In this document: piece after piece, positions 1,936 to 56,815 of the stretch
Position numbering within the stretch: position 1 is the first letter of the stretch
How the letters are laid out: each line of letters begins with the position of its first letter
IMG/VR virus record: IMGVR_UViG_3300042922_001473
Direction: 5' to 3' (one strand)
DNA from: a virus
Taxonomy: Duplodnaviria > Caudoviricetes
DNA length: 64,000 bases
Program-made: the position numbers and the translations under genes
The notes under the pieces: generated by a model
What the model was told of the DNA's origin: nothing
Seen by the model: the letters and a program-made list of their open reading frames with translations, nothing else
Databases searched by the model: none

Positions 1936-2208
1936 TTAATGAATTATCAAAATTACAACTAAAATATAGAAAAGTAATAAAGAAGAAATTATTATAAAAA
2001 TAGGCAAAATTAAATACTTTAAAAAACATATCATAAATTTAAAAATATTAAGAACTTCACAATTTTGTATATTTGACATTACCTGTGGTTTTGTTAATAC
2101 CTCTTCACTAATTCCTGCAAATCCGTTATCAGCATAAAAGATAGATTTAATTAATTGCGTTTTATTACTGTTTTTATTCCATGCTCTGAATTTAATTTTT
2201 CTACTCAT
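1936..2208 (-). pseudogene. truncated YopX-family gene fused to element-end and flanking sequence
   Basis: MSRKIKFRAW is the YopX N-terminus; after about 33 codons the frame reads through the ISL3-type left end (EEVLTKPQVMSN) into unrelated sequence. Confidence 0.65.
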
Positions 2209-2252
2209 AATCTTTTTCCCTTCTTAAATACCATAACTAATATCGCTAACCT
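2067..2252. mobile_element. ISL3-derived mini-element E1 (186 bp) carrying a yopX 5' fragment
   Basis: left 42 bp match the E3 left end at 37/42; right end ATACCATAACTAATATCGCTAAC matches the E2 right end at 22/23; TSD degenerate. Confidence 0.65.
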
Positions 2253-3974: not shown

Positions 3975-4154
3975 TATGTACCTCCAATTACTTATAAAAT
4001 TCATTAAAATATATTTCTTTATAAATATTATATCATATTAAATATAATTTGTAAATTGTAATTTACACATTTAAAATATTTGCACTTATTTAAATGTTTT
4101 AAAGAAAAAAATAAAAAAGACTAAATTTCTTTAGTCCTTTAAATTTCATGCTTA

Positions 4155-12260: not shown

Positions 12261-12311
12261 GTTACCCTCCCCTGATTTTTATATTGTTTATATTTAATTA
12301 TATATTATATG

Positions 12312-12325
12312 TTGACTATAATCAA
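12312..12325. promoter_or_regulatory. palindromic operator overlapping the -35 of the uvrD promoter
   Basis: TTGACTATAATCAA; minus-strand TTGATT-N17-TATAAT. Confidence 0.55.
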
Positions 12326-12393
12326 CTGTTATTTTACTAAATAAAAAACCCGATTAACATATTAAATGTAATTCGGGTCTTTTTATTCTGTTT

Positions 12394-12564
12394 TTAATTT
12401 ATTTCTTTATGGTGTAATTTAGTATAGCCATTGTCATTTGTCACAGCATATACATAGACATCTTTATCATATGTTTCAGTTGTAATAACTTTAGTTACTT
12501 CACCTGTCTCTTTAACGATAATTTCATCGTTATTATGCAATTTTTTAGCATTTTTATAATCCAT
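12394..12564 (-). CDS. small hypothetical protein (56 aa)
   Basis: not in ORF track; AAGGAG RBS, MDYKNAKKLH... Confidence 0.55.
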   Translation of the reverse strand: MDYKNAKKLHNNDEIIVKETGEVTKVITTETYDKDVYVYAVTNDNGYTKLHHKEIN

Positions 12565-12591
12565 AATTATCTCCTTTTTTATATTACCCTA

Positions 12592-12972
12592 TTAGAGTTT
12601 TAATGATTTGATAAAATCTATTTGTTCCTTACTCCATGTATTGTATATTTCTTCAACATCACCTGTCTCAAATAGGTTTTTGTTTGTTTCCTCCATGGTA
12701 ATAACCCACTCAGACAGTGCTTCATCAACTGAATTATAGAGTCTATATCCTTTATCTTTATTGAATTCTTTAACAGTACTGTCAGCACAAATTTCATATT
12801 TATACTCATAATATTCTAATACCTCTTTTAATAAATCTACCTTATTCATAGTTATCTCCTTAAAATTATTTCTTGTTATATGATACAAAGGATTTATGTT
12901 TTTGTTATTACTATCAATTTCTTTTTGTATTAAAGTCTCAATTTCAGTTTGTGACAAATCACTAAATGTCAT
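12592..12972 (-). CDS. hypothetical protein
   Basis: ORF; internal AAGGAG-ATG at 12849 may be the true start. Confidence 0.55.
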   Translation of the reverse strand: MTFSDLSQTEIETLIQKEIDSNNKNINPLYHITRNNFKEITMNKVDLLKEVLEYYEYKYEICADSTVKEFNKDKGYRLYNSVDEALSEWVITMEETNKNLFETGDVEEIYNTWSKEQIDFIKSLKL

Positions 12973-13082
12973 TGTCCCATAATAAACACCATCATTATAA
13001 AATATATCGTATCTTTTTTTAATTTTAATTCACTCCTTACTAATTTTATTAGAAATCTAATACCTTGTTTGTATATTTCTTT

Positions 13083-13670
13083 TTAAACCTGCTCTATAAG
13101 TGCTTCAATAAAATCTTTAGCTCTTGATAATGCATATTTTCTGTCTAATGGTTCATCATCATAGCAAATTGTAAATACCTTATCAATTTCCTTTGGAACT
13201 CTATACGCAATACCATCTTTCGGTTTCCAAAATGTAACCCAGTATTCGTAATTATTATACCCATCTGTATTTTTTCTGTACTCAATGCAGTCTGAAATTT
13301 TAACAGCATGACACATTCCAATACCAAAAAAATTATCTTTTGTTAATTGACCTGTAGCATAATAATTATCAACAGCTTTTTCTGGTCCAAAACATGTAGT
13401 ATAATTATAAGTCAATTCTTTTTCCATATCATTAATATAACTTCTATTTTCAAGTTCTTTTAAATTCCTTCGGCATCCATAAAACATTGTCCAATTTTTA
13501 GGGTGGTCTAATTCAGGATTTGAAATCATAATGGGTATATCCTGGTCTCCATTTTTTCTTATTTCAATCCATGCATTTTTGCCTGCATCAATAGCTGATA
13601 ATAGTCCTACCATTGCCTCTGTATAATCCTCTGTAGCCTTTGTCCAAGCAGTATTAATATTATTTTTCAT
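13083..13670 (-). CDS. hypothetical protein
   Basis: 195 aa, AAGGAG RBS. Confidence 0.7.
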   Translation of the reverse strand: MKNNINTAWTKATEDYTEAMVGLLSAIDAGKNAWIEIRKNGDQDIPIMISNPELDHPKNWTMFYGCRRNLKELENRSYINDMEKELTYNYTTCFGPEKAVDNYYATGQLTKDNFFGIGMCHAVKISDCIEYRKNTDGYNNYEYWVTFWKPKDGIAYRVPKEIDKVFTICYDDEPLDRKYALSRAKDFIEALIEQV

Positions 13671-13918
13671 ATATAAAATCTCCTTTTAAATTTAATTATG
13701 CATTTACTGTTTTTTATGTTTTCTTTATTATAGTTAAATTTTGAATGATAAATAACTAAACACCTTTCTCCAAAATCGAGTAACTAATTATGCCTATAAG
13801 AAAAAATGTATGAATTACCAATATTGTGTTATCCATAAATGGTTTTCATTAATTAATACTTTGAAGAATATAATAATAAAAATTAAAGAAATAGGAATTT
13901 ATATAAAATTATTAAAAC

Positions 13919-14122
13919 ATGATAAAGACGGAGGCTAAAATGTTTGATGAATCAAAGTGTAATAATTGTTGGTGCAAAAATTGTAATTATGACTATGGAT
14001 TAGATGTAAGTGAATTCTCTTGCTTATGTAAAAACAGAGCAGATAGAGGTTGTTTTAGATGCAAAGAGAATAATGTAAATAATGTTGTAAATCAGAATAA
14101 AAACTGTGTACAGCGAGCTTAA
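13919..14122 (+). CDS. small Cys-rich protein
   Basis: CNNCWCKNC...CLC...CFRC; GGAGG before internal ATG; terminator follows. Confidence 0.55.
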   Translation: MIKTEAKMFDESKCNNCWCKNCNYDYGLDVSEFSCLCKNRADRGCFRCKENNVNNVVNQNKNCVQRA

Positions 14123-14159
14123 AAAAAGAGAAAGTGAAAATTCACCTTCTCTTTTTTTG

Positions 14160-16856
14160 TTATGCAGTTTGTTTTACATAATCAATTCTTTGTATGCCTT
14201 CAAGTTCTGTAACAAAACCCATACAACTATTTACTTTTCTTCCTCCACCATACGAGCTATAAGTTATATATAATTCACTTTTAGCCCTGGTGATTGAAAC
14301 GAATAATAATCTTCTTTCTTCGTCACGTTCTTTATCTCTAATTTGAGTTCCTGTATACTTGTATTTATTTATTGTATTAATTACAACATCAAATTCTTTA
14401 CCTTTTGAGCTATGAGCTGTCGTTAATACGACTGCTTTAAATTTAATATTGTTTACTTCTAAAGTTTTTTCATCTTTGTATAAAGCAAACTTTATCAAAT
14501 AGTTTATCAAACTATCGAATGATTTAAACTCTTTATCTCTTAATACCTTTGTGAACTCAGCCACAGCTTTATCTTTAGTAGCAATTGAAGCAATTGTTTT
14601 AAAGAAAAACTCTATCTTTTGTGCATCGGTAGTTAAAGCATAAAAAGTTTTTACGAAATTGTTTCTGTAATGACCTACAAAATCTTTTAATTCTAATGAA
14701 CTCATTTCTTTTATCGTATCATTTTTAAACATTAATAAATATTCTAAAAGATTAAGTTCTAACTCTGGATTATTTAAGAAGTTTGCAAAGGACAATATTA
14801 CTTGAATATTTTTATTATTAAGCAACAATTGTGTTACATCCATAACAGCAGGAATGTTTTTAGCGTCAAATATGTTTTTTATCTCAAGAAGTTCCTTCTT
14901 AGTTCTTGCAATTATTGCAATCTCTTCTGCTTTAACCCCTTGGTCTAATTTTTCTTTAACAATTTCAGCTATATTTTCATATTCTTCCTTCTTTTCAAAG
15001 TAATGAATCAACTTAGGAAGTTTTCCTGATGCTTTTCTACTTATCAAATCCTTATCTACTCTGTTTTTATTCTTTTGATTTAGCAAGTTTGCAGTTCTTA
15101 TGATTTCAGGTGTTGACCTAAAATTATCTACAAGGTTTATATCTTTAGCACTTTTGAAAAACTCATTAAAGTTTAATATAAACTCTTGAGACACATTTCT
15201 AAAACTAAATATTGATTGACTATCATCTCCAACTACCATTAAAGATTGAAATTTTCCTTGCTTTACAAGTAAGGTTATAATCTGCAACTGATTGTAGTCG
15301 GTATCCTGAAATTCATCTACCATTATATGCTCAACAGTGTATTTGCGTAAAGTTTCAGGGTAAGCTCTAAATATCTGCAAAGTATAGTTGATTTGGTCTT
15401 GATATTGAAGAAGTGAATTTTCTATCAGGTCTTCATTAAATATTTGATATAAATTCCAAACACCTTCAGCTACTATAACTGTACAATTAACATCCTTAGC
15501 AAATTCTTCGTAATTTAAGTAGTTATTAGCTTTGATTTTGTCAAAGTAACTATCTACAAGAACTACTGCACCTTTTGCATATGGTAAATTCATTAAAGGA
15601 TTTTTATAATCAAGTCCCTGTATTTTGGGATAACTTTCAAGCAATTGGAAAATAATATCATATCTTTCTACCTTTTCAGCTAATAGTGGTTTACTTTCAA
15701 ATCCAAGTTTCTCAAACTCTTCACTTATTATTCTCTCACCAAAACTATTGAATGTAAATATATTCATTTTATCCACATCAATATGCTCTAATTTAAAGTG
15801 TTTTAACCAATAAGAAACTTTTTCTTTGATTTCAACTGCACCCTTATTTGAGAATGTAATAAGTAAAATATTTTCAGGTTTTGTTCCTTTTTTAAATAAA
15901 TTTACAACTCTTAATGCCAATACAGATGTCTTCCCTGCACCAGCTCCTGCATTAATTCTTACGATACCACAATCAAACTGAACTGCTTTTTTCTGGTCTT
16001 CTGTAAGATGAATTGTTCCGTTAGGTGACTTTTCAATAACTTCTACAATATCTAATTCTGTTTCTGTCTTTTCTTCATAATAACAAATTTTTGAAAAACT
16101 ACATTTTTCGCAATTAGATTCATCACAAGTTTTTTCTGAATTAAAAGAAAGCTTTCTATTAAGTATTTCAAATATTTTGTTATCAATATACTTAATATAC
16201 GCTTCGTCTTCGTCAACTTCATTAACAAAATGATAATTAATTATGTTATAACCTTTTTTAAATTCAAATAGCTCTTGAAACTCCCTTGAATTATCTCCTT
16301 TACTCTGTAAGTGATAATAACTTGCTGTTACAGGTTTGTCTTTATATAATTCTTCACCTAATTTTTGAAGCATGTAAAGCTCAATGCTATATTTGGGATT
16401 AGTTTCATACTTTTGTCCTCTGTAAGATAATTTAGGTTCACCTTTTTTATATTTAACCACTTCAATTGTTCCTTTGTTTTCAAATATAATATCTGCTGAT
16501 ACTGTAATTTCATTTCCTTGATATTGTACAGCTTTTGTAATATTTTTCATTAAAACCTTTCGATTAAATAATTGTTCATATTCAAAATATCTTACAAGTT
16601 GTTTAGTCAAAAGTTCAATTTCAGCAATTTTTTCGTCTTTAGAAACGAACATGCTTTCATCAACAAGCTTTTCTAATGAAGCAGGTATTGTAGTTAAATC
16701 ACCATTTTTAATATCAAAATCTCTAATAAAATTTTTAATTACTATAGAGAGTTCATAATGTTTGTTTTTAAGAGATTTTAAATTTACGCCTTCTAAAAAA
16801 CCTCTAACTTTACATTTATCAATGCTCACTATATCCTTTAATTTTGCTTGTACCAT
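14160..16856 (-). CDS. UvrD-like helicase with N-terminal degenerate PD-(D/E)XK (Cas4/AddB-like) domain
   Basis: AGAGAGKT, DEFQD, VGDDSQSIF, NFRS, TAHSSKGKEF, EERRLLFVSITRA; N-terminal ADII...VVKYKKG...C....CEKCSFSKIC. Confidence 0.85.
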   Translation of the reverse strand: MVQAKLKDIVSIDKCKVRGFLEGVNLKSLKNKHYELSIVIKNFIRDFDIKNGDLTTIPASLEKLVDESMFVSKDEKIAEIELLTKQLVRYFEYEQLFNRKVLMKNITKAVQYQGNEITVSADIIFENKGTIEVVKYKKGEPKLSYRGQKYETNPKYSIELYMLQKLGEELYKDKPVTASYYHLQSKGDNSREFQELFEFKKGYNIINYHFVNEVDEDEAYIKYIDNKIFEILNRKLSFNSEKTCDESNCEKCSFSKICYYEEKTETELDIVEVIEKSPNGTIHLTEDQKKAVQFDCGIVRINAGAGAGKTSVLALRVVNLFKKGTKPENILLITFSNKGAVEIKEKVSYWLKHFKLEHIDVDKMNIFTFNSFGERIISEEFEKLGFESKPLLAEKVERYDIIFQLLESYPKIQGLDYKNPLMNLPYAKGAVVLVDSYFDKIKANNYLNYEEFAKDVNCTVIVAEGVWNLYQIFNEDLIENSLLQYQDQINYTLQIFRAYPETLRKYTVEHIMVDEFQDTDYNQLQIITLLVKQGKFQSLMVVGDDSQSIFSFRNVSQEFILNFNEFFKSAKDINLVDNFRSTPEIIRTANLLNQKNKNRVDKDLISRKASGKLPKLIHYFEKKEEYENIAEIVKEKLDQGVKAEEIAIIARTKKELLEIKNIFDAKNIPAVMDVTQLLLNNKNIQVILSFANFLNNPELELNLLEYLLMFKNDTIKEMSSLELKDFVGHYRNNFVKTFYALTTDAQKIEFFFKTIASIATKDKAVAEFTKVLRDKEFKSFDSLINYLIKFALYKDEKTLEVNNIKFKAVVLTTAHSSKGKEFDVVINTINKYKYTGTQIRDKERDEERRLLFVSITRAKSELYITYSSYGGGRKVNSCMGFVTELEGIQRIDYVKQTA

Positions 16857-17035
16857 TTTGGCACTTCCTTTCACTATGTATTTTTTAAAAATCCTGTTTT
16901 ATATAAAATCTTTATATTATACTTTAAATAGCCTTCAATTATAAATAATAAGAATTATATCTGTTCAGTTATATTTGTATTAATCTGTCATTTTTTATTT
17001 ATATGGACTATAGTGTTTACATTATAACCGTATTG

Positions 17036-17351: not shown

Positions 17352-18422
17352 TTACCACCTCATACCAATTTCGTTTAGCAACTTAATTCGTTCTTGATTT
17401 AGTTTGTTTTTTTTGTAGTACTTCCTTTGTGTGTGAATCCATTCACCTAAATGAATATCATTTATTCTATATTTATTAGAAATTAATAAATTCTTATGTT
17501 CTTTATAATATTGTTTAGCTAATTCATAATTGTACCCCCATGGATTTACAGTTCGATGGTATGTGTTACGACAACTCCATATCATATTAATGCTTTCTAA
17601 TTTTTCTTTTTGTTCTTTAGATAATTTATTTTTTTTGAATGCTTGTCTTTGTTTTTGAACCCAATATCCTAACTTTTCATCATTTTTAATATAAGAAATT
17701 GGTATTAACAAATCTCCATGTTCTTTGTAATACTCTATAGCTAATTCGTAATATTCCATCCATGATAATTCTTCCTCATACCATGAAATTCCTATGGATT
17801 CCAATTTTTTAATTTTTTCAGTAGTTAAAAGCTTATTCTCGAAGTAATTTTTTTGTTGTCGAATCCAACTACCTAAATCTATATTATTAATTTTATACTT
17901 TGTTGGAACATTTAAATGACCGTTCTTTTTATAAAATTGTTCAGCTAATTCATACTTTTCATTCCATAAACTTTCATTTCGCTTCCAGACAACCCCAATT
18001 GATTCTAATTTTTTTATTTGGTCTACTATTAATAAATTTTTTTTATAATATACTGTCTGATTTAATAACCAGTTCCCTAAATTATCATTATTGATTTTAT
18101 AATTACGAGGGATAAGTAAATTTTTATGTTCATTGTAATATTCTTTAGCTAACCCAAAATTTTCATCCCATGTTTTAACAACTCTAACTCCTGAAGTATT
18201 TCGCAAATTCCATTTAACGCCTATATTTTCTAATTTTTTAATTTGTTCATTATTTAATGTATTTTTCTTATAAAATTGTTTCTGATTATAAAGCCAAATA
18301 CCTAATTTTATGTTGTCAACTACATATTTAGTAGGAATTAATAAATCACCATGCTCTTTATAATATTGTTCAGCTAATTCATAATAGTCATTCCAAGTTC
18401 TTCTTACAGATTCTTTGCTCAA
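17352..18422 (-). CDS. stand-alone helicase-associated (HA) domain repeat protein
   Basis: five repeats of W...YELA..YY..HG.L.IP..Y.....LG.W...Q......L...I..LE.IG..W. Confidence 0.85.
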   Translation of the reverse strand: MSKESVRRTWNDYYELAEQYYKEHGDLLIPTKYVVDNIKLGIWLYNQKQFYKKNTLNNEQIKKLENIGVKWNLRNTSGVRVVKTWDENFGLAKEYYNEHKNLLIPRNYKINNDNLGNWLLNQTVYYKKNLLIVDQIKKLESIGVVWKRNESLWNEKYELAEQFYKKNGHLNVPTKYKINNIDLGSWIRQQKNYFENKLLTTEKIKKLESIGISWYEEELSWMEYYELAIEYYKEHGDLLIPISYIKNDEKLGYWVQKQRQAFKKNKLSKEQKEKLESINMIWSCRNTYHRTVNPWGYNYELAKQYYKEHKNLLISNKYRINDIHLGEWIHTQRKYYKKNKLNQERIKLLNEIGMRW

Positions 18423-22201: not shown

Positions 22202-22438
22202 GAATTAATCTCCAATTCGGTTTTTATATTTACTGTTTTTATTTATTATTATACCATATTTCTCGTATTTCGTCAATTTTAATTTACTTTATAGGTCTTT
22301 TTTGCCAATATCAATTTATTACAATTTGTATAAATAGTAAATATAAAAATTTCATCATATAATATTATATATTTTATTAAAACAGGAGTTTATTTTAATA
22401 AACAAATTAATTACATAAAAATCGAAAGGAAACTTAAA

Positions 22439-28130: not shown

Positions 28131-28208
28131 ATTTTAACCTCCTACTTCTCTATATTCTTATAATATCATTTTTTAAGTAATTTGTCAATTATATTTTACA
28201 TTTTAGAT

Positions 28209-32819: not shown

Positions 32820-32837
32820 AATCCTCCTTAATAAATT

Positions 32838-33198
32838 AGGTGTTCGACATTAATTGTGGTATAATCATCCAGAAAGGAGTTGCTCTTTAATGCTTCTCCT
32901 TTTTAATCAGTTTCATATTCATGTAAATTACAAACATTGTTTTTACTTATTCCACTATTATAAAATTCGCTTAATGGGTTTTGACAATTACAATTTTCTG
33001 TGTCTATAACCATATTATTAACCGATATTAATGTTATATTATTACCATTAACTATTCCAGTACCATTCCATACTTTTATATCAATTTTTGATTTGCAACT
33101 ATTACACTTTCTCATTTTCTATCTCCAATAACCACATTTAAATTAAAATCTTATTCTTTATCAAAATCATTCAATACCACAACTAATATCGCTAACTC
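32838..33198. mobile_element. ISL3-derived mini-element E2 (361 bp) with passenger gene
   Basis: left end AGGTGTTCGACATTAATTGTGGTAT, right end (reverse complement) GAGTTAGCGATATTAGTTGTGGTAT; 8-bp TSD AATAAATT at 32830-32837 and 33199-33206. Confidence 0.8.
32903..33115 (-). CDS. Cys-rich passenger protein of E2
   Basis: 70 aa, CNSC...CNC...C; RBS and ATG lie in the conserved right-end block. Confidence 0.55.
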   Translation of the reverse strand: MRKCNSCKSKIDIKVWNGTGIVNGNNITLISVNNMVIDTENCNCQNPLSEFYNSGISKNNVCNLHEYETD

Positions 33199-33261
33199 AA
33201 TAAATTAAAAGCAATCCATACGGTTTATTTCTTAACTATATAGCTTTTAAACAATTAACCA

Positions 33262-34635: not shown

Positions 34636-34796
34636 TTAATTATCCTTTTAATTATATTTATAATTGTTTATTTCCTTTAATCATTATATCACAATAATAT
34701 AATTTTGTAAATTATTTTTTCTTTTATAGCACAAAAATAACCCCTTATATATAAATAAGAGGCTATTTTGTAAATATGCAAACTAATAAGAAATCA

Positions 34797-35024: not shown

Positions 35025-35272
35025 ACTACTTTGCTCCCTTCAATAAAAATTCTACAATTTATTATACATAAAACATTTTCATATATAACTTTTATTGTAT
35101 TAGAAGCATTATTACTAAGCTAATGTCTCAATTATATTCCCATCTTTATCTTTTACAACTATTGTTGGCAATTATAAGTTTCGGATATTCGACATTACCT
35201 GTGGTTTTCTTCATACCACTTCACCTTTTTTTCATTAATTTGCATTCGACTTTAATTGTGGTATAACCATCC

Positions 35273-35437
35273 TTGAATAATAAAACTACAACTGTTAAAT
35301 CATATTTGCGAACTTTGGCTTTGGACAAGGATGTCTGTACATGCGTTGCAATGGATATTGCAAGTGCTTACGCAAGTGCTGTTAAAGCTATCTTACCTAA
35401 TGCAACAATTGTTATTGATAAGTTTCATGTTATTTAA
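35273..35437 (+). pseudogene. ISL3 family transposase internal fragment
   Basis: translates to ...VKSYLRTL...VAMDIASAYASAVKAILPNATIVIDKFHVI*, the ISL3 DDE signature. Confidence 0.85.
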
Positions 35438-35718
35438 TTAATAGGACTGTTGACAGTGTTCATATTTAAATACGGTTCAGGTAATGTTTGCCATGCTGTT
35501 ACATACCTGTTATAATCTTCTGCTCCATATTTCCAGCCAAATATTTCTGAAAAGAATATTGTTCTTGTCTGAGGTTCATAATCTGCAATTTTAATTGTAC
35601 ATATAAAGCTTCTGTAATTTGGATGTTCTACATCAAACTTTTTACACTCTTCTTCACTTGGCAATCTTTCTTCAACAGGAATCCAACTACCATTTAATTT
35701 TTTTTTAATATCACTCAT
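35434..35718 (-). CDS. DUF551 family protein (E3 passenger)
   Basis: WIPVEERLP...VTAWQTLPEPY. Confidence 0.8.
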   Translation of the reverse strand: MSDIKKKLNGSWIPVEERLPSEEECKKFDVEHPNYRSFICTIKIADYEPQTRTIFFSEIFGWKYGAEDYNRYVTAWQTLPEPYLNMNTVNSPIN

Positions 35719-36009
35719 TTTCTACCTCCAATACCACAATTTTAATTTAAATTTTATTATTTATAAAAACCATTCGATACCAAACATAATGTCGCTAACC
35801 CTAAGTTTCCTGCTCAACTATATATTCTCCACTCATAATCTTTTCATAAATATTTTCTAATATTTAAAAATTTACAACCCCAATTCCATCGTAATCATTC
35901 AATTCGCCCAGTGTAACATAATATACCTTTTCACCAGTAAATTTAAGTATTTCTTCTTTAGCTATTTTCTATTAAAATTATAATATATATTTCCCATATC
36001 AATATCCAC

Positions 36010-36762
36010 TTAACTTATTAGCTTTTGATTATAACAATTTTCTAAATCAGTATATGGGATATTGAATTCTATTCTTAAGGAAAACCCATTATAGTCATTC
36101 TTTCTTCCTGAAAATTTATAAATTACTGCATTAGGAAAATCGGACAACAAAAGTTCTTGAAATCTTTTTTTATTATTATCAGTATCTAATAGTTCAGATT
36201 TAAATTGAGCATTATGAATATCCCAACCATCATCTGTCTTTTGTTTTGTTCCATTATTATTTTTAAATACTTTAAAAATTTCTTTATCAGCTAAATGTGC
36301 TTCCTTTTCCATGCTCATATCAGAAGATAAATCTGCAATTATTCCATATGCTGAATAAGATACGGAAGCATAATGCCATCCTTCACTTTCATACCACGCT
36401 CTTAAAATATTTTCATATCTATTTATTGCCCCAGTAACTGCTTCTGGAGAGACTCCTTTTCCAAGCAAATCAATTAATCTTCGTATTTCTATGTTCTTTT
36501 CACGTATTTCAACATGTCTTTTTTCCTTTTCATTTAAAAGAATAGAATCATATCCTACCATTTTTGACAAATCTGAATGAAAGCCCTCATTTAATCCAAG
36601 ATTTGTCCATACATTAGTTTTATTTACAATGTCCCCTTCAACTAAATCTCTAAAAAAGAACATATTTGACAACATTTCATTTATTTTCTTTATAACCTTT
36701 TTCTTATCTTCAAAAGATAATGAAAGAAGCGTATCATCTCTAAATATTTCTAATTTACTCAT
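36010..36762 (-). CDS. hypothetical protein
   Basis: AGGAG RBS, 250 aa. Confidence 0.7.
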   Translation of the reverse strand: MSKLEIFRDDTLLSLSFEDKKKVIKKINEMLSNMFFFRDLVEGDIVNKTNVWTNLGLNEGFHSDLSKMVGYDSILLNEKEKRHVEIREKNIEIRRLIDLLGKGVSPEAVTGAINRYENILRAWYESEGWHYASVSYSAYGIIADLSSDMSMEKEAHLADKEIFKVFKNNNGTKQKTDDGWDIHNAQFKSELLDTDNNKKRFQELLLSDFPNAVIYKFSGRKNDYNGFSLRIEFNIPYTDLENCYNQKLIS

Positions 36763-36918
36763 ACTATTCACTCCTAATTCTATAATCTATGGTCAACAAC
36801 TTCATTTGTCATACATAAAATAGCAAGTCATGCCACGTTTAAAACCTTTCGCCATTTGTTAAAGCGTTTTAAAGCCTCTAAGCAATGAAGTAATTCGCTA
36901 TAATGTAATGACTTTTTT
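36760..36918 (-). repeat. decayed duplicate of the pnkp 3' end plus downstream RBS/ATG (other copy 37614..37778)
   Basis: long identical stretch ctataatctatggtcaacaacttcatttgtcatacataaaatag, plus substitutions and a roughly 7-bp deletion. Confidence 0.9.
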
Positions 36919-36929
36919 GTTTAAAATCA

Positions 36930-37616
36930 TTAATTTGTTCCTTCATTTTCAACACTTGTTTGACAACTAATTAATGTTGCCTGAATAGAGTCTATAACAC
37001 TACAAATCGAATATTTAAGAAGAAAGTATAAATTACTATATTCAGGATATTTGTCTTTTGCTTTTCTGATAAGTGGTAAAATATATTCGTAAGTTTCATC
37101 AATATATGATTGTAATTTCTCATTACTAAATACACCTGCCATTGAAGATACGTTATGACATCTATCAATACATTTTACTATAATTACTCTCTTATCATCT
37201 AACATTGAATTATAGTATCGTTTTTTTGCTTCTTCTTTTGTTTCTCCATCTAAAACTTCAAATGTAAGTTTTTTAACCCCAAGTTTAATATCATCATTAA
37301 CAGGAAAGTCACTTATAGGCGTATTGCAATCCTCTGCCACATCATGAAGCATAATCATTGCAATTATTGAGTCATCTTTTATGCCCATTGATACAGCATA
37401 AGATGCCATAGTTAATGGATGTATAAAATATGGTGTTCCATCTTTTCTTTTTTGGTCTTTATGCTTATCTCTTGCATATGAAAGAGCTTTTAAAGTTTCT
37501 GTCATACCTGCACCCATTGCAAAACCTTTATTATAAGTATAAAGTTTATAAACATCAAATAATTTATTTCCCATATGTTCCAATTCTACTCTTTTTTTAA
37601 TTGCATTTGTTGTCAT
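36930..37616 (-). CDS. RelA/SpoT-type HD hydrolase (Mesh1 / small alarmone hydrolase-like)
   Basis: H..QKRKDGTPYFIHP, LHDVAED, KCIDRCHN. Confidence 0.85.
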   Translation of the reverse strand: MTTNAIKKRVELEHMGNKLFDVYKLYTYNKGFAMGAGMTETLKALSYARDKHKDQKRKDGTPYFIHPLTMASYAVSMGIKDDSIIAMIMLHDVAEDCNTPISDFPVNDDIKLGVKKLTFEVLDGETKEEAKKRYYNSMLDDKRVIIVKCIDRCHNVSSMAGVFSNEKLQSYIDETYEYILPLIRKAKDKYPEYSNLYFLLKYSICSVIDSIQATLISCQTSVENEGTN

Positions 37617-37633
37617 ATTATTCACTCCTCACT

Positions 37634-38872
37634 CTATAATCTATGGTCAACAACTTCATTTGTCATACATAAAATAGTAAGTATATACTCATGCCACGTT
37701 TGAAAATCTTCACCATTTGAAAATCGTTTTAAAGCCTCTACGCCAAGAAGCAATTCCCTATAATGTAATGACCTTTTTCTGCTTAAGCTTCTATTTTTTA
37801 ATTTTGCTATTACTGTAGGGTTGTCATAGTTAATTCCATATATAATCCTTAAATAATCCTTACCCCTTACTTTCATCATAGGAAGGATTAATTCACCCTG
37901 GTCATTATGTTCGAGAAAATATTCTGTCTTTAATATAAATCCCTCATACCCTTTAGAAGTTAATTCATCCCAAAATTTTATTGAATTACTTATGCTTTCT
38001 TCTTTGGTAAGGTCTATAAGCACATATGGTGTTTTAATAAATAAGTTATCTTCATTTTCAGCAAACATATTAAAGTGATTTAAGTGCCATTCATGCTCTT
38101 TGTCAAAAAATGTTTTTCCTTCATGTGCTAATAAATGAAAAGGTGCAATTTTTATATTTTCAATATTTGTATCCCAGCAATAGTTCTCTAATTGTTGTTT
38201 ATATTTATTTATGTTTGTAAGATTATTTTCTACTTCTTTAAGCATTTCTTCTTTAATTATAGGAGTATCTTTTAAGTTTTCATATAATTTAGTGTTTAAA
38301 GCTAATGCACTATCAAGTACAGGTAGATATTGATTAAAAAGTAATCCTTCACCTTTAGCATTCCATGGAAGAATTTCAGCGTCTATTATTACAAACCCAG
38401 TATCAAACCTATTAAAATAATCAATACTATTTAAAATAGCTTTAATCCTTAATGATATAGTTTCATTTTCTTTTTCATTGAAGAATTTCTTGCCTGTTCT
38501 TGAATAGATAATTACTTCTTCTTGTTGGTTAGTAAACTCTATTGCTTTTTCTTTATCTTTAAAAACAATAATAGTGCTTCTGCTTCCCATATGTTTTAAT
38601 TCAGCAATTAATCTTTTAGCTCCAAGAGATTTATATTCTTCAATTGCCTCTATAGGATGTTCAAGAAAATCTATATTTTTAGAAGTTCTGCATGGGCTAA
38701 TTGTTGGTGGAATATATGGTAATACATTCGTAGGCATTAACCTAAAACTTATTTCATCAAGTGCTGATTGCACATTTTTAGGGTGTATATTTATTTCTCT
38801 ATTATCAACTGCTATGTTAAACCCATTTATATATTTAGCTATATCAACAGCTTTAAATCTATTATTTAACAT
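37634..38872 (-). CDS. bacterial Pnkp C-terminal RNA ligase (adenylyltransferase) domain only
   Basis: YIPPTISP, EHP, KHMGSR, DAEILPWNAK, APFHLLA, EGFILK, KVRGKDYLRIIYG; no kinase or phosphatase domains. Confidence 0.9.
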   Translation of the reverse strand: MLNNRFKAVDIAKYINGFNIAVDNREINIHPKNVQSALDEISFRLMPTNVLPYIPPTISPCRTSKNIDFLEHPIEAIEEYKSLGAKRLIAELKHMGSRSTIIVFKDKEKAIEFTNQQEEVIIYSRTGKKFFNEKENETISLRIKAILNSIDYFNRFDTGFVIIDAEILPWNAKGEGLLFNQYLPVLDSALALNTKLYENLKDTPIIKEEMLKEVENNLTNINKYKQQLENYCWDTNIENIKIAPFHLLAHEGKTFFDKEHEWHLNHFNMFAENEDNLFIKTPYVLIDLTKEESISNSIKFWDELTSKGYEGFILKTEYFLEHNDQGELILPMMKVRGKDYLRIIYGINYDNPTVIAKLKNRSLSRKRSLHYRELLLGVEALKRFSNGEDFQTWHEYILTILCMTNEVVDHRL

Positions 38873-38898
38873 TATTTATCCTCCAAATACCTGATATT

Positions 38899-40443
38899 TT
38901 ATATATTTAACTTTGTAAATACTGCCATCATAGTCGGTTGTATATCATCAATAACCTTTCCGAAAGAAGAAACCTTATAGTCATATCCATAAGTTTTACT
39001 AATATTTTCACAGAAACTCATGAATTCATTTTTAGTAAATTCAAATCTATGGTCATAATGTCTTAACCTATTAGAACTATTAAAGAATTTGTTAAATTCT
39101 ATATTTGGTGTTGAAATTATTAAGTTCTTTGGTTCAAGATACATTACATTGTCAATAATTCCTGGTATTCTTTCAAGTTCATTATGCTCAATTACTTCAC
39201 AAAGAACTATTGTATCAAATCCCTTTAATCTTGAATCTCTATAATACAGAGAGCTTTGCAATAGTGTTATGTTGTTAAATTTATTACCCCTAAATCTATT
39301 CTTAGCTTTATAGATTATATCAGCATTAGAATCAACACCTGTAATTTCTAAATTTTCATATACTAATTTATCAATCAAATTTCCTTCGCCACAACCAAAA
39401 TCCAGAACTTTTTTGCATTTTGTTTCTAAAATTGCTTCTTTTACCTTAATTAATCTTAAAGTATTTAACTTTAATCCATTTTCTCCATATCCTTTATCTA
39501 CAACTTCTTCTATTTCTATCTCGTTATTAATTTGATTTATTTGTTTATTTTTCTCCTCTATTTCATTTAATAGCTCTGTTGCATAAGTAGAATATGACAA
39601 ATATCTTTGAGTAATTACTTTTCTCATTGAATGAGTATCAAGCCAGCCTTCAGTATATCTTTTAAATTTTTCTAAATCCTGTTTTTCTGGTTTAAAATGC
39701 CTGAAATTATCTATTGCGGTAATAGTTACAATGAGTTCTCTTAATATATCTCTCACCTTTCCTGTTTTCTCTAATTTGATAAAACAAATTTCTTTTCTTC
39801 TTGAAGTAAAAGAAACAGGTTCATTAAATTCTTCTATCGCAACTTTATACCCAAGTTCTTCATACATCTTTATTATATTTTCATTAGTTAGTTTTGGTTT
39901 AAATGGTCCTACTTCTAATTGAATATCATACTCATTTTCATAGATGTCGCCTTCTTTATTCAATGAAGTGTTTAATACATTCATTATTTCTTTTTGAAAT
40001 ACCGAAGTAGCAAGATACTCTTTTTCGTTTACATATCCATTGAAATCTTTAGCAAATGCTAATGTATCTGGTAATGAGTACAAAACTGCCTCAACCTCAG
40101 TTTCAGTATATTTTTTATAAAAGAAAAATGTATCAATTATCTCTCCTACTTTTTTTCTTATTAATTCACCATTTGACGTGATATATTTTACCTGCGTGTT
40201 CTCATTTATTACTTCAAGTTTTTCATTAATAACTCTATCTTTTTTTAATAATTTAATTAAATCCTTTGATAATGTCTTTATATTTAATGAGACCTCTCCA
40301 TTTTTTAATAAGTCTTTTATTTTATAATCTACATCTACAGCTACAGCTCTTTCACTATTCACAAATACTTTGTTAGGATTTTTACCATATACGTAACTTA
40401 ATAAATTCGCATTATTACCCTTTGCGTTTATCTTTAAAAACAT
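38899..40443 (-). CDS. hen1: Hen1 RNA 3'-terminal 2'-O-methyltransferase
   Basis: N-terminal LSY...KNP, YVNEKEY; C-terminal VLDFGCGEG, EVIEH, STPN.EFN, RHYDHRFEFT. Confidence 0.9.
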   Translation of the reverse strand: MFLKINAKGNNANLLSYVYGKNPNKVFVNSERAVAVDVDYKIKDLLKNGEVSLNIKTLSKDLIKLLKKDRVINEKLEVINENTQVKYITSNGELIRKKVGEIIDTFFFYKKYTETEVEAVLYSLPDTLAFAKDFNGYVNEKEYLATSVFQKEIMNVLNTSLNKEGDIYENEYDIQLEVGPFKPKLTNENIIKMYEELGYKVAIEEFNEPVSFTSRRKEICFIKLEKTGKVRDILRELIVTITAIDNFRHFKPEKQDLEKFKRYTEGWLDTHSMRKVITQRYLSYSTYATELLNEIEEKNKQINQINNEIEIEEVVDKGYGENGLKLNTLRLIKVKEAILETKCKKVLDFGCGEGNLIDKLVYENLEITGVDSNADIIYKAKNRFRGNKFNNITLLQSSLYYRDSRLKGFDTIVLCEVIEHNELERIPGIIDNVMYLEPKNLIISTPNIEFNKFFNSSNRLRHYDHRFEFTKNEFMSFCENISKTYGYDYKVSSFGKVIDDIQPTMMAVFTKLNI

Positions 40444-40494: not shown

Positions 40495-40682
40495 TTTCGA
40501 TATTATAATAATTTTATAGACTATTAAAATTTATGTAACTTCTATTAATTCCATTATATCATAATTATTTCTTTTTGTCAATTTTACTTTACATTAGAGT
40601 AATATAAATATCTGATAATTACATATAATATATAAATTTATATATTAGGTTCATAACAAATGACAATTAGAAGGAGTATTTT

Positions 40683-49483: not shown

Positions 49484-50479
49484 CTATGCGATTTTTTTAC
49501 TCTTAATTAAGTAATCATTATTTATCACTTTCATTGATAAGTTAGAACATAATATTTCGCTATAACAAGGTATCATTGGAATTATAACTATGCCCTCTCT
49601 TTGATGATTTGAGCTTTCGTAAACACCTTTAGCAAGTTCTAACAATTCTTCTAATGTGAATTCAAATGTAACATTCAGCTTCATAGGCACATGCTTTAAC
49701 CCATACTTTTTACAGAAATCAATTAATTCTTCAGGGCTTAGATATGACTGAGTATCATTATTAAATATTCTAAACACGAATAATTCATTTTCTTTTAATC
49801 CTAACTTATTTTTCATTATCCCAGGACCTGCTATTTCTCCTTGTATAGAATAATTCCCTGCCTTTTTCAATATTTCAATAATATTATATTTCTTTTCCAT
49901 TTTCCAGTAAACACTATTTTCGTCTTTCAATAAGCTATGTGTATGACTGCATACATGGTAATCATCATTATTCTTTATGTAAGAAGCTGAATACCCGTCT
50001 ATTTTTGTTGTAATTGCTACTTTTTTACCCATAAATTCATCTATAAGTTTTGGGAATGATTGTACTCTTTCTTCACCTGTTTTACTTACTATAGTTGGGT
50101 GATAACCTCTTGATACGCCTATCATTTCTTCTGGAAATTCATCCTCATATTTTTCAACACCAAGCAACTCAGTTACATCTTTTCCTTCAAAAATCTCTGT
50201 ACTTGTTGGAAGAATATCGGTTGTCCAGCATAACCCTTGTGATAACTGCCCACGAAGTCTAAGAGTTTTTAATCTGTAATTATTGATTGCCATATATTCA
50301 AATTCAGGTATTTTAGGTAATATACTATCTATTTCAAAGTATATACATAAATCCCCTTCTTTAAATTGTCCTTTCTTTACTACACATTTCCAACCTAATA
50401 TTGTAGCTATATCTAATGTATCAGCATTAAAATGTGGTACAAGTTTTGTAATTTTCTGAATAGATGCTAACTTTCGCAT
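49484..50479 (-). CDS. RNA ligase, DRB0094/Rnl5 family
   Basis: MRKLASIQKI, GWKCVVK, YFEIDS, LRGQLSQG, KIDG (motif I), QGEIAGPGI, REGIV, KVINNDYL. Confidence 0.9.
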   Translation of the reverse strand: MRKLASIQKITKLVPHFNADTLDIATILGWKCVVKKGQFKEGDLCIYFEIDSILPKIPEFEYMAINNYRLKTLRLRGQLSQGLCWTTDILPTSTEIFEGKDVTELLGVEKYEDEFPEEMIGVSRGYHPTIVSKTGEERVQSFPKLIDEFMGKKVAITTKIDGYSASYIKNNDDYHVCSHTHSLLKDENSVYWKMEKKYNIIEILKKAGNYSIQGEIAGPGIMKNKLGLKENELFVFRIFNNDTQSYLSPEELIDFCKKYGLKHVPMKLNVTFEFTLEELLELAKGVYESSNHQREGIVIIPMIPCYSEILCSNLSMKVINNDYLIKSKKIA

Positions 50480-52298: not shown

Positions 52299-52470
52299 TA
52301 AATACTACACATAAATTTAAAATTCATGTATCATTGAATCTATTATTGCATTTTCATGAAAATTATGTTATTCTATTTATATAATATATTATACCACATT
52401 TTGTATTGTTTGTAAATTAAAATTTACTAAATATATAATATTTTAACTTAATTTTTTTAAGGAGACTAAT

Positions 52471-56502: not shown

Positions 56503-56815
56503 TTACATTCCCCTTATTTACATATTCGGTTTTGCTTCTATTACCTCATTATTATATAAATATTGCCAGTTCAACTAATTTTTATTTTATGTATAATATA
56601 TTATACCACAGTATATATTTTTTGTAAATTATATTTTATATATTTAAGATATTACGATATACTTTGTTAATTATTTAAAAAGCTATAAAATAAAAACAGC
56701 ATTCTCTAAAAACTAAGAATACTGCTTTTACGTTTCTATTTGATTTTTAACAGTTATCTCTGCTATGAGCATGAGTTTTATGTCTTCATCCCGACTTTAT
56801 CATTAATTTACTATA

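What the first reader, a model, noticed from the sequence alone, without database searches (positions are those of the whole stretch)
35175..35809. Family of ISL3-derived mini-elements, each carrying a different phage-type passenger gene next to the right end
Seen: three elements (E1 2067-2252, E2 32838-33198, E3 35183-35801) share imperfect 25-bp terminal IRs. E3 has a perfect 8-bp TSD (TAAGTTTC) and a 54-codon ISL3 transposase remnant (VAMD...LPNA.IVIDKFHV); E2 has TSD AATAAATT. E2 and E3 share a roughly 90-bp right-end block with an inner IR-like repeat, RBS and start (TTGGAGRTAGAAAATGAG). After that start the cargo is unrelated: a Cys-rich ORF in E2, DUF551 in E3; E1 carries a yopX 5' end next to its right end. 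Cargo always reads inward from the right end, antisense to the transposase. Established: ISL3 elements have GG-initiated IRs and 8-bp TSDs; passenger-carrying IS derivatives (MICs, transporter IS) are known. Inference: a non-autonomous gene-shuttling system whose right end supplies translation signals to interchangeable small genes, which could help build the accessory-gene mosaic.
Basis: partly seen in the sequence, partly recalled or inferred. Interest (0 to 1): 0.85.

Follow-up and report, generated by a model that had tools for sequence, protein, structure and literature searches.

The report
Decayed cargo-carrying ISL3 transposon relics
Three small inserts in this clostridial contig are broken-down remnants of a phage-dwelling branch of the ISL3 jumping-gene family, each carrying a different passenger gene in the same fixed slot; they are real, but a variant of the known passenger-carrying insertion sequence rather than a new kind of system.

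Summary
E1 (2067-2252), E2 (32838-33198) and E3 (35183-35801) share ISL3-type ends far beyond chance. E2 and E3 have perfect 8-bp target duplications. E3 keeps a 54-codon ISL3 transposase remnant.

A full-length relative (L001/L010, 2.5 kb) explains the anatomy. It has an outer left repeat plus an inner copy, a 479-aa transposase, a hairpin, one antisense passenger gene, then an inner right repeat and the right end. E1-E3 are internal-deletion derivatives of such elements.

About 20 relatives carry different passengers in the same slot: PAPS-reductase-like genes, DNA methyltransferases, toxin-antitoxin-like pairs and unknowns. Most have perfect 8-bp duplications. Two elements about 90% identical in backbone (L036, L037) carry unrelated cargo. 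All 12 insertion contexts examined in the nearer clade lie among phage or prophage genes.

I found no evidence that the mini-elements themselves move: each is single-copy, the ends are diverged, and the window has no transposase.

Passenger-carrying ISL3 elements (ISPst2/ISPpu12 type) and transposase-less cassettes are known, and this scan has noted similar ISL3 cargo elements on other DNA. Verdict: a new variant of a known kind, of moderate interest.

The parts
35175..35182 (.). E3 target-site duplication, left copy (TAAGTTTC)
   Evidence: 8/8 identical to 35802-35809
35183..35207 (+). E3 outer left inverted repeat
   Evidence: 35182-35277 is 93.75% identical to the left end of full-length element L010
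35245..35270 (+). E3 inner left repeat (second copy of the end motif; carries TGTGGTATAAC where full-length relatives have TGTGGTATAAT just upstream of the transposase RBS)
   Evidence: inner copy about 56 nt inside the outer one in all full-length relatives
35276..35475 (+). E3 ISL3 transposase remnant (codons about 187-252 of a 479-aa protein; in-frame stop at 35435-35437)
   Evidence: PF01610 E 1.3e-12; tblastn 79% to L010 transposase residues 187-241 and 239-252; 84.7% nt over 190 nt
35434..35718 (-). E3 passenger ORF, DUF551 (94 aa); the last ~12 codons are antisense of the transposase remnant, so the native 3' end is deleted
   Evidence: paralog in L107 is 89.7% identical over window 35470-35740
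35731..35742 (-). E3 inner right repeat AAATTGTGGTAT, followed by GGAGG RBS and ATG
   Evidence: same motif at the same distance from the right end in at least 15 relatives
35777..35801 (-). E3 outer right inverted repeat
35802..35809 (.). E3 target-site duplication, right copy
32830..32837 (.). E2 target-site duplication, left copy (AATAAATT)
32838..32872 (+). E2 left end: outer and inner left repeats collapsed into one hybrid copy, with TGTGGTATAAT
   Evidence: alignment A4; 32843-32882 matches L010 element positions 64-104
32871..32904 (+). E2 hairpin plus T-run, homologous to the hairpin that follows the transposase stop in L010; the whole transposase gene is deleted between the tnp RBS and this hairpin
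   Evidence: 32875-32901 matches L010 element 1540-1566, 89%; -14.5 kcal/mol, z -4.6
32903..33115 (-). E2 passenger ORF, 70-aa Cys-rich protein, no family
   Evidence: only 2 small homologues; one in a phage-like contig without IS ends
33128..33139 (-). E2 inner right repeat (AAATGTGGTTAT variant), followed by GGAGA RBS and ATG
33174..33198 (-). E2 outer right inverted repeat
33199..33206 (.). E2 target-site duplication, right copy
2067..2108 (+). E1 outer left end block (87% identical to E3, 90% to L010)
   Evidence: (D13)
2109..2208 (-). E1 passenger fragment: 33 codons of a YopX-like N-terminus fused to the left end block
   Evidence: phrog_98 link; not confirmed by Pfam or BLASTP
2224..2252 (-). 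E1 right end with outer and inner right repeats collapsed (spacer lost)

Best explanation
E1, E2 and E3 are three separate, internally deleted remnants of a passenger-carrying branch of the ISL3 insertion-sequence family.

The intact element is 2.2-3.3 kb and is built as follows: an outer left inverted repeat; a second inner copy about 56 nt in, which carries a TGTGGTATAAT extended -10 just upstream of the transposase RBS; a ~475-aa DDE transposase; a short hairpin or spacer; a cargo slot holding one to four genes that read antisense to the transposase; an inner right repeat AAATTGTGGTAT directly upstream of the cargo RBS; about 37 nt of spacer; and the outer right inverted repeat. Insertion makes 8-bp target duplications.

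Shown: the cargo differs between elements whose backbones are about 90% identical, so the slot content is replaced while the ends and transposase are kept.

Inferred: replacement happens by illegitimate or short-homology recombination at the RBS/start side and at the transposase-3' side, with selection keeping the ends intact.

In the window, each insertion then decayed by deletions between short repeats. E2 lost the whole transposase gene (from the tnp RBS to the hairpin GGAG) and merged its two left repeats. E3 lost the 5' and 3' parts of the transposase gene and the cargo 3' end. E1 kept only the two ends and 33 cargo codons. What remains are small accessory genes co-oriented with the host element's genes.

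E2 and E3 still have both ends, so they could in principle be mobilised in trans, but nothing here shows that they are.
For: 1. Full-length relative. L001/L010 matches E3 in three blocks: left end 93.75% over 96 nt, transposase 84.7% over 190 nt, right end 83.75% over 80 nt. It also matches E2 and E1 at the ends and the hairpin.
2. Transposase identity. The remnant hits PF01610 at E 1.3e-12. The full-length protein scores 268 bits on NF033550 against a cutoff of 180.
3. Target duplications. 8/8 in E2 and E3, and in 11 of 15 full-length relatives.
4. Cargo slot. 340-2000 bp lie between the transposase stop and the right end in 14 relatives. The gene nearest the right end is antisense in every relative with a called cargo ORF.
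5. Cargo diversity. PAPS_reduct, C5 and other DNA methyltransferases, NUDIX, HEPN plus nucleotidyltransferase, acetyltransferase, and unknowns.
6. Cargo swap. L036 and L037 are 90% identical over the left end and transposase and 92% over the last 79 nt, with unrelated cargo between them: PAPS_reduct against a phrog_757 methyltransferase. L112 and L113 share 34 nt past the transposase stop and then diverge. On the transposase tree, cargo types interleave.
7. Mobility of full-length elements. The P0022 element sits at three or more sites and the P0063 element at five or more.
8. Deletion junctions in E1-E3 (alignments A3 and A4).
9. A fourth relic in the same MAG. A DUF551 paralog is preceded by a collapsed right end and has no left end.
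Against: The rest of the genome (a 534,699-bp contig in one assembly) could not be searched, so an intact transposase or further copies of the mini-elements may exist.

No empty-site allele was found.

L010 itself, L117 and L042 lack a clean duplication.

The mechanism of cargo replacement is inferred, not shown.

The promoter proposed inside the right end is not above chance in this AT-rich DNA.
Confidence: 0.8

Rival explanations
1. The mini-elements are themselves an active non-autonomous system (MIC/MITE-like). They would be mobilised in trans by a transposase encoded elsewhere and so shuttle small genes.
For: E2 and E3 keep both terminal repeats and perfect 8-bp duplications. E2 is a tidy unit of ends, complete ORF and hairpin. 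Transposase-less IS-end cassettes are a known kind. An earlier scan note (e1-5324380, not checked here) reports an ISL3-ended cassette polymorphic in a phage.
Against: Each mini-element is single-copy in 64 kb and the three differ by 13-19% even in their ends. E3 carries a useless transposase fragment and a truncated cargo, and E1 carries only 33 cargo codons and has no clean duplication, which looks like decay in place. The window has no transposase. The duplications cannot discriminate, because the deletions are internal.
Confidence: 0.15
2. Cargo replacement is an active, element-encoded process. The subterminal inner repeats would serve as alternative transposase sites that define the borders of a cassette slot, rather than cargo turning over by passive recombination.
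For: The right border of divergence falls immediately after the inner right repeat in all compared pairs, and that repeat sits at a fixed distance from the end. The left border lies within a few codons, or about 34 nt, of the transposase stop. Cassettes are almost ORF-precise.
Against: The distance from the inner repeat to the RBS and start varies from 0 to about 200 nt (L012, L027, L032, L034). Left borders differ between subgroups. Sharp borders are also what selection for intact ends and transposase would leave. No cassette-side recombination site was seen.
Confidence: 0.1
3. The shared blocks are not transposon ends but repeated regulatory cassettes of the host element (promoter plus RBS) upstream of small genes.
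For: The host element has its own family of promoter-like repeats ending in TGTGGTATAAT (families D3, D6, D9, D10). The blocks lie upstream of co-oriented genes.
Against: There is a transposase remnant, inverted ends, 8-bp duplications, and full-length homologues with the same ends in unrelated phage contigs.
Confidence: 0.02

Closest known systems
ISPst2 / ISPpu12 group of the ISL3 family (passenger-carrying 'transporter' IS)
   Same: ISL3 DDE transposase, 8-bp duplication, passenger genes inside the ends. The ISPst2 ends given in PMC6305408 Table 3 (GGGTATCCGGAATTTCTGGTTGAT / GGGTATACGGATTTAATGGTTGAT, 2,985 bp, 2 passenger genes) closely resemble the GGGTAT.CGGAATTA..TGTGGT ends found here.
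   Different: Those elements are from Pseudomonas and Arthrobacter plasmids and chromosomes, with a regulator plus a permease or metal genes. Here the nearer clade sits in phage or prophage gene blocks of Clostridia-type metagenomes. It mostly carries one antisense gene, often for DNA modification. The window copies have lost the transposase. Sequence-level relatedness to ISPst2 was not tested, because no sequence was held.
Mobile insertion cassettes (MICs) and MITEs: IS ends without a transposase, with or without passenger genes
   Same: E2 (361 bp) and E3 (619 bp) are IS ends enclosing a small gene with no working transposase. E1 (186 bp) is MITE-sized.
   Different: MICs and MITEs are defined by mobilisation in trans and usually occur in several copies. 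Here each element is single-copy, diverged and partly truncated, and no transposition of the mini form was seen. The definition of MICs rests on my own knowledge.
Phage morons (own knowledge): a gene with its own promoter and terminator inserted between two phage genes
   Same: E2 is a co-oriented small gene followed by a hairpin, inserted in an intergenic site of a tightly packed one-strand gene array.
   Different: Here the insertion mechanism is visible as IS ends plus a duplication. The promoter is only inferred.
Mycobacteriophage mobile elements MPME1/2
   Same: Small transposon-like elements that are present or absent between related phage genomes (PMC5356059 abstract). That they carry short inverted repeats and one small ORF is my own knowledge, not read here.
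   Different: A different family. MPMEs are not described as carrying exchangeable cargo, and no ISL3 relation is known.
ISEc53 (ISL3 family with a ClbS-like passenger)
   Same: An ISL3 element with a single passenger gene, as reported in earlier scan notes.
   Different: It has a fixed cargo, an enterobacterial chromosomal setting and targeting of LexA operators. None of this was tested here.

Membership tests
ISL3 family insertion sequences | DDE transposase of the ISL3 type (PF01610 / NF033550) | tested here: met
   The E3 remnant hits PF01610 at E 1.3e-12 and NF033550 at 1.1e-12. The full-length relative L010 scores 268 bits on NF033550 against a cutoff of 180. E1 and E2 have no transposase sequence and are assigned through their ends and hairpin.
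ISL3 family insertion sequences | Imperfect terminal inverted repeats starting GG | tested here: met
   E3 17/25 (GGATATTCGAC... / GGGTTAGCGAC...), E2 18/25, E1 13/25. Relatives match at 16-22 of 26, apart from L034 (13/26), whose right end is uncertain.
ISL3 family insertion sequences | 8-bp target-site duplication | tested here: met
   E2 and E3 are 8/8, and 11 of 15 full-length relatives are 8/8. E1 is only 5/8.
Transporter IS (IS with passenger genes) | Genes unrelated to transposition lie between the terminal repeats and move with the element | tested here: met
   In the relatives, cargo lies inside ends that are bounded by perfect duplications. The same transposase-plus-cargo unit is found at several sites (P0022 at 3 or more, P0063 at 5 or more).
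Mobile insertion cassette / MITE | IS ends without a functional transposase | tested here: met
   E1 and E2 have no transposase sequence, and E3 has a 54-codon fragment with a stop.
Mobile insertion cassette / MITE | Mobilised in trans: several copies, or presence/absence polymorphism of the mini form | tested here: inconclusive
   There is one copy of each in the 64-kb window. All assemblies that carry the neighbouring gene also carry E2.

The most novel reading that the evidence does not exclude
A branch of the ISL3 family has specialised in living inside phage genomes as a shuttle for single accessory genes. It keeps a fixed antisense cargo slot bordered by a subterminal repeat. It lies in phage genomes with its cargo co-oriented with the neighbouring phage genes. 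It swaps cargo at nearly ORF-precise borders; the cargo is often DNA-modification or anti-restriction genes such as methyltransferases and PAPS-reductase-like enzymes, and here DUF551, YopX-like and Cys-rich genes. When the transposase decays, it leaves ordinary-looking 'morons'. This would give a concrete mechanism for part of the accessory-gene mosaic of phages.
Probability: 0.45. Interest if true: 0.6.

Novelty: new variant of a known kind. Interest (0 to 1): 0.45.

Why it matters
Insertion sequences are thought to be rare and poorly tolerated in phage genomes, and how small accessory genes ('morons') arrive between phage genes is mostly unexplained.

In the nearer clade, all 12 insertion contexts examined were phage or prophage gene blocks. 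Each element brings a different passenger gene in the same slot. The window shows the end state, where the transposase is gone and the passenger stays as a small gene in line with its neighbours.

If the pattern holds in a larger survey, it gives a traceable route by which methyltransferases, PAPS-reductase-like enzymes and small unknown genes spread between phages. It also gives a simple sequence signature (end motif plus inner repeat) for finding such arrivals.

For this window alone the elements are relics with no evident activity.

Tried and rejected
- Whole-genome search: no genome is held for the window, and the MAG behind L107 is not held.
- Relatives of the host element for empty-site alleles: no DNA match in the phage collection. 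There was no relative of the 255-aa neighbour in viral contigs. The other assemblies that carry the neighbouring 100-aa gene all carry E2, and one Logan contig simply ends inside the E3 cargo.
- Consensus promoter scan: 28 sites against 28.4 expected, so the TTTATA-17-TAAAAT site in the E3 right end is no evidence.
- Terminator scan: found nothing, although the E2 hairpin folds well.
- YopX identity of E1 by Pfam and by BLASTP against a YopX protein: no hit. Only the indirect phrog_98 link remains.
- Exact-pattern scans of viral contigs for the ends: only L001 was a true element, and the other left-motif hits were chance matches in coding DNA.
- Search with the 53-aa transposase fragment for longer proteins: it returned one distant hit and missed even L010, so it says nothing about a cognate transposase.
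- P0131, the best homologue of the E2 cargo, is not on record for context.
- Survey of 399 scored Clostridia species genomes (401 searched, 2 not scored): only the Sedimentibacter MAG already known had a close transposase at E <= 1e-100.
- Literature searches: no paper describes a phage-resident ISL3 clade with variable cargo. This is absence from the held library only.

Full report
**Observation**

I read the three stretches and confirmed the shared ends. The left-end motif TTCGACATTAMYTGTGGT occurs four times in the window against 0.10 expected: once each in E1 and E2 and twice in E3. The right-end motif occurs three times against 0.01 expected.

- E3 (35183-35801, 619 bp) is flanked by TAAGTTTC on both sides.
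- E2 (32838-33198, 361 bp) is flanked by AATAAATT on both sides.
- With the window's base composition, a perfect 8-bp repeat at fixed positions has a chance of about 8e-5.
- E1 (2067-2252, 186 bp) has flanks that match only 5/8 as direct repeats.
- The + strand ORF at 35273-35437 is an ISL3 transposase fragment: PF01610 at E 1.3e-12, profile positions 35-87 of 240, and NF033550 at 1.1e-12.
- The E3 minus-strand ORF is DUF551, just above Pfam's cutoff, with phrog_15198 at 5e-13. The E2 ORF is a 70-aa Cys-rich protein with no family.
- The E1 ORF starts with 33 codons that hit phrog_98 at E 8e-4. A genuine PF09643 YopX protein from a related locus hits the same PHROG at 2e-29. Pfam and BLASTP do not confirm YopX directly.

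**What the elements derive from**

An exact-pattern scan of viral contigs found one true relative, L001 (the same DNA as L010, and identical to L011 in a Sedimentibacter MAG). It is a full-length element of about 2.48 kb built in this order:

- an outer left repeat;
- a second inner copy of the same motif about 56 nt further in, ending in TGTGGTATAAT just before the transposase RBS;
- a 479-aa ISL3 transposase, scoring 268 bits on NF033550 against a cutoff of 180;
- a hairpin directly after the stop codon;
- a 274-aa PAPS-reductase-domain gene on the opposite strand (PF01507, E 1.7e-22);
- an inner right repeat AAATTGTGGTAT just upstream of that gene's RBS;
- the outer right repeat.

BLASTN maps the window elements onto this plan:

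- E3 matches the left end (93.75% over 96 nt, including both left repeats), transposase codons about 187-248 (84.7% over 190 nt), and the right end (about 84% over 77-80 nt).
- E2 matches the inner left repeat, the post-transposase hairpin (32875-32901) and the right end.
- E1 matches only the outer left block and the outer right repeat.

The alignments show how each arose.

- **E2.** The two left repeats have merged into one hybrid copy. The whole transposase gene is missing between the AAAGGAG of its RBS and the GGAG of the hairpin.
- **E3.** The 5' third and the 3' half of the transposase gene are gone. The second deletion also removed the last codons of the DUF551 gene, whose ORF now ends in antisense transposase sequence. 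This is seen by comparison with the paralog in L107.
- **E1.** The outer and inner right repeats have merged, and the cargo is cut after 33 codons.

The window has no intact transposase and no further copies.

**The wider family**

The L010 transposase has 549 homologues at E <= 1e-30. From metagenome, viral and assembly contigs I collected about 20 elements with at least 50% identical transposases.

- They share ends of the form GGGTAT.CGGAATTA..TGTGGT, the duplicated left motif, and the inner right repeat at a fixed distance from the right end.
- Eleven of 15 elements with both ends have perfect 8-bp duplications.
- All have 340-2000 bp between the transposase stop and the right end. That space is filled with one to four genes, and the gene next to the right end is antisense to the transposase wherever a cargo ORF could be called.

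Cargo found:

- PAPS-reductase-like genes of at least three unrelated types;
- C5 and other DNA methyltransferases;
- a methyltransferase plus NUDIX pair;
- a HEPN plus nucleotidyltransferase pair;
- an acetyltransferase-containing set;
- a YhgA-like gene;
- a four-gene set with DUF1963 and DUF6985;
- several unknowns.

Identical transposase-plus-cargo units occur at several sites: P0022 at three or more, including between portal and large terminase genes, and P0063 at five or more. The full-length elements therefore move with their cargo.

**Cargo replacement**

L036 and L037 are 90% identical over the left end and transposase and 92% identical over the last 79 nt. In between they carry unrelated genes: PAPS_reduct against a phrog_757 DNA methyltransferase. 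Divergence starts a few codons before the transposase stop and ends right after the inner right repeat.

L112 (C5 methyltransferase) and L113 (PAPS-reductase-like) share 34 nt past the transposase stop, including a hairpin, and then diverge.

On a transposase tree, cargo types interleave. The tree has two well-supported clades, one with PAPS and methyltransferase cargo and one with toxin-antitoxin-like and other cargo.

The replaced unit is thus close to one ORF with its RBS. I infer recombination at short homologies with selection for intact ends. I could not test an active role for the inner repeats.

**Translation signals**

Across the clade, the sequence after the inner repeat is cargo-specific. 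A Shine-Dalgarno-like GGAGG lies anywhere from 2 to about 22 nt downstream, and further in L012 and L027.

Only E2, E3 and the L107 DUF551 paralog share GGTATTGGAGRTAGAA.

A promoter inside the right end is possible: a -10-like TATAAA overlaps the start of the inner repeat in several elements. The consensus scan is at chance level in this AT-rich DNA.

The E2 hairpin folds at -14.5 kcal/mol (z -4.6) on the transposase strand and is followed by a T-run.

**Setting**

The window belongs to a Clostridiaceae MAG, GCA_029256485.1. The contig is 99 kb there and 534,699 bp in another assembly. GC content is 26%, and the genes lie almost all on the minus strand. They include Pnkp/Hen1 RNA repair, RNA ligase, UvrD-like helicases and RadA. 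I could not tell whether the contig is a phage, a plasmid or part of a chromosome.

All three cargo ORFs are co-oriented with the neighbouring genes, and the transposase remnant is opposed to them.

A fourth relic lies on another contig of the same MAG. It is a DUF551 paralog, 89.7% identical in DNA, preceded by a collapsed right end and with no left end.

In the clade nearest to E3, all 12 insertion contexts I examined are phage or prophage gene blocks. Neighbours include YopX, RusA, Lar, Dam, Rad52, ERF, Gam, portal, terminase, DnaB, integrase, endolysin and phage methyltransferases. In the closest relatives the cargo runs with the phage genes. Flank orientation is mixed in more distant members.

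The transposase is rare in sampled Clostridia species genomes: 1 of 399 scored at E <= 1e-100.

A homologue of the E2 cargo sits in a phage-like contig without IS ends. The cargo genes are therefore ordinary phage-type genes.

**Comparison with what is known**

Passenger-carrying ISL3 elements are established. ISPst2 is 2,985 bp with two passenger genes, and its ends are very like those here (PMC6305408). From my own knowledge, ISPpu12 is another example, and transposase-less IS-end cassettes (MICs) and MITEs are also known.

Earlier notes of this scan report ISL3 cargo elements on other DNA. They include a relic with a toxin-antitoxin cargo, a clade with many cargos at one position, and an ISL3-ended anti-CRISPR cassette in a marine phage. 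These are unchecked leads, but they show the theme is not new to the scan.

What is less familiar is the combination seen here:

- residence in phage genomes;
- a single antisense slot bordered by a subterminal repeat;
- frequent cargo turnover;
- decay into moron-like genes.

I found no paper describing it in the held library.

**Verdict**

The gene-shuttling lineage is real, but the window elements are best read as relics rather than an active non-autonomous system, and the built-in RBS-ATG is not general.
- Novelty: a new variant of a known kind.
- Interest: moderate.

Noticed in passing
L107:9960-10260 (same MAG, contig JAQSXU010000001.1): A DUF551 paralog (83% aa, 89.7% nt to the E3 cargo) is preceded by GGGTTAACAGCATTATGGTATTGGAGG. 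This looks like a right end with outer and inner repeats merged, and there is no left end. It is a fourth relic of the same IS lineage in this genome.
   Followed up: partly
window 36759-36939 and 37613-37799: Two blocks (70 nt at 94%, 79 nt at 78%) are repeated about 855 nt apart. They cover the 5' ends and leaders of two adjacent minus-strand genes (36010-36771, unknown; 36930-37625, HD_4 RelA/SpoT-like hydrolase), which both start MN.M.
   Followed up: no
window 4022-4064, 22248-22294, 28160-28206, 34683-34720, 40553-40599, 52383-52434, 56595-56637: A family of promoter-like repeats reads TTTACA-N17-TGTGGTATAAT on the minus strand. The inner left repeat of the IS carries the same extended -10, TGTGGTATAAT.
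   Followed up: no
window 37634-40443, 49484-50479, 10305-16874: The window holds a Pnkp-ligase / Hen1 RNA-repair pair, a separate RNA ligase with a PHA02142 OB fold, and two UvrD-like helicases, one of which has a PD-(D/E)XK domain. This is a dense nucleic-acid repair repertoire on one strand.
   Followed up: no
window 17352-18422: A 356-aa ORF is made of five tandem 'helicase associated' HA domains (PF03457, E 8e-88), seen in DNA as five repeats of about 204-225 nt.
   Followed up: no
L122:2900-3230: A 65-aa homologue of the E2 cargo (52%) in a phage-like contig is flanked by direct repeats TAGTCCGTTGTTTG, with a related copy further upstream, and has no IS ends. This may be a different intergenic repeat system.
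   Followed up: no
L123-L130: A related ISL3 element (transposase P0063, 506 aa) carries four antisense passenger genes (88 aa, 203 aa, DUF6985, DUF1963). It is found at five or more sites, including next to a Cas12a gene, an IS200-type Y1 transposase, and a GH-E toxin / Imm33 pair.
   Followed up: partly
window 2059-2066 and 2253-2260: The E1 flanks ACAATTTT and TAAATTGT match 7/8 as an inverted repeat but only 5/8 as a direct repeat. This may be a decayed duplication of a near-palindromic target, or chance in AT-rich DNA.
   Followed up: no
L036:6430-7362, L012:7827-9242, L113:6500-7756, L114:8654-9425: In four of the phage-resident relatives, a phage DNA methyltransferase or ParB-methyltransferase gene lies beyond the right end: immediately adjacent in L036 and L113, 1.3-2.3 kb away in L012 and L114. 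This may be a preferred neighbourhood or a source of cargo.
   Followed up: no
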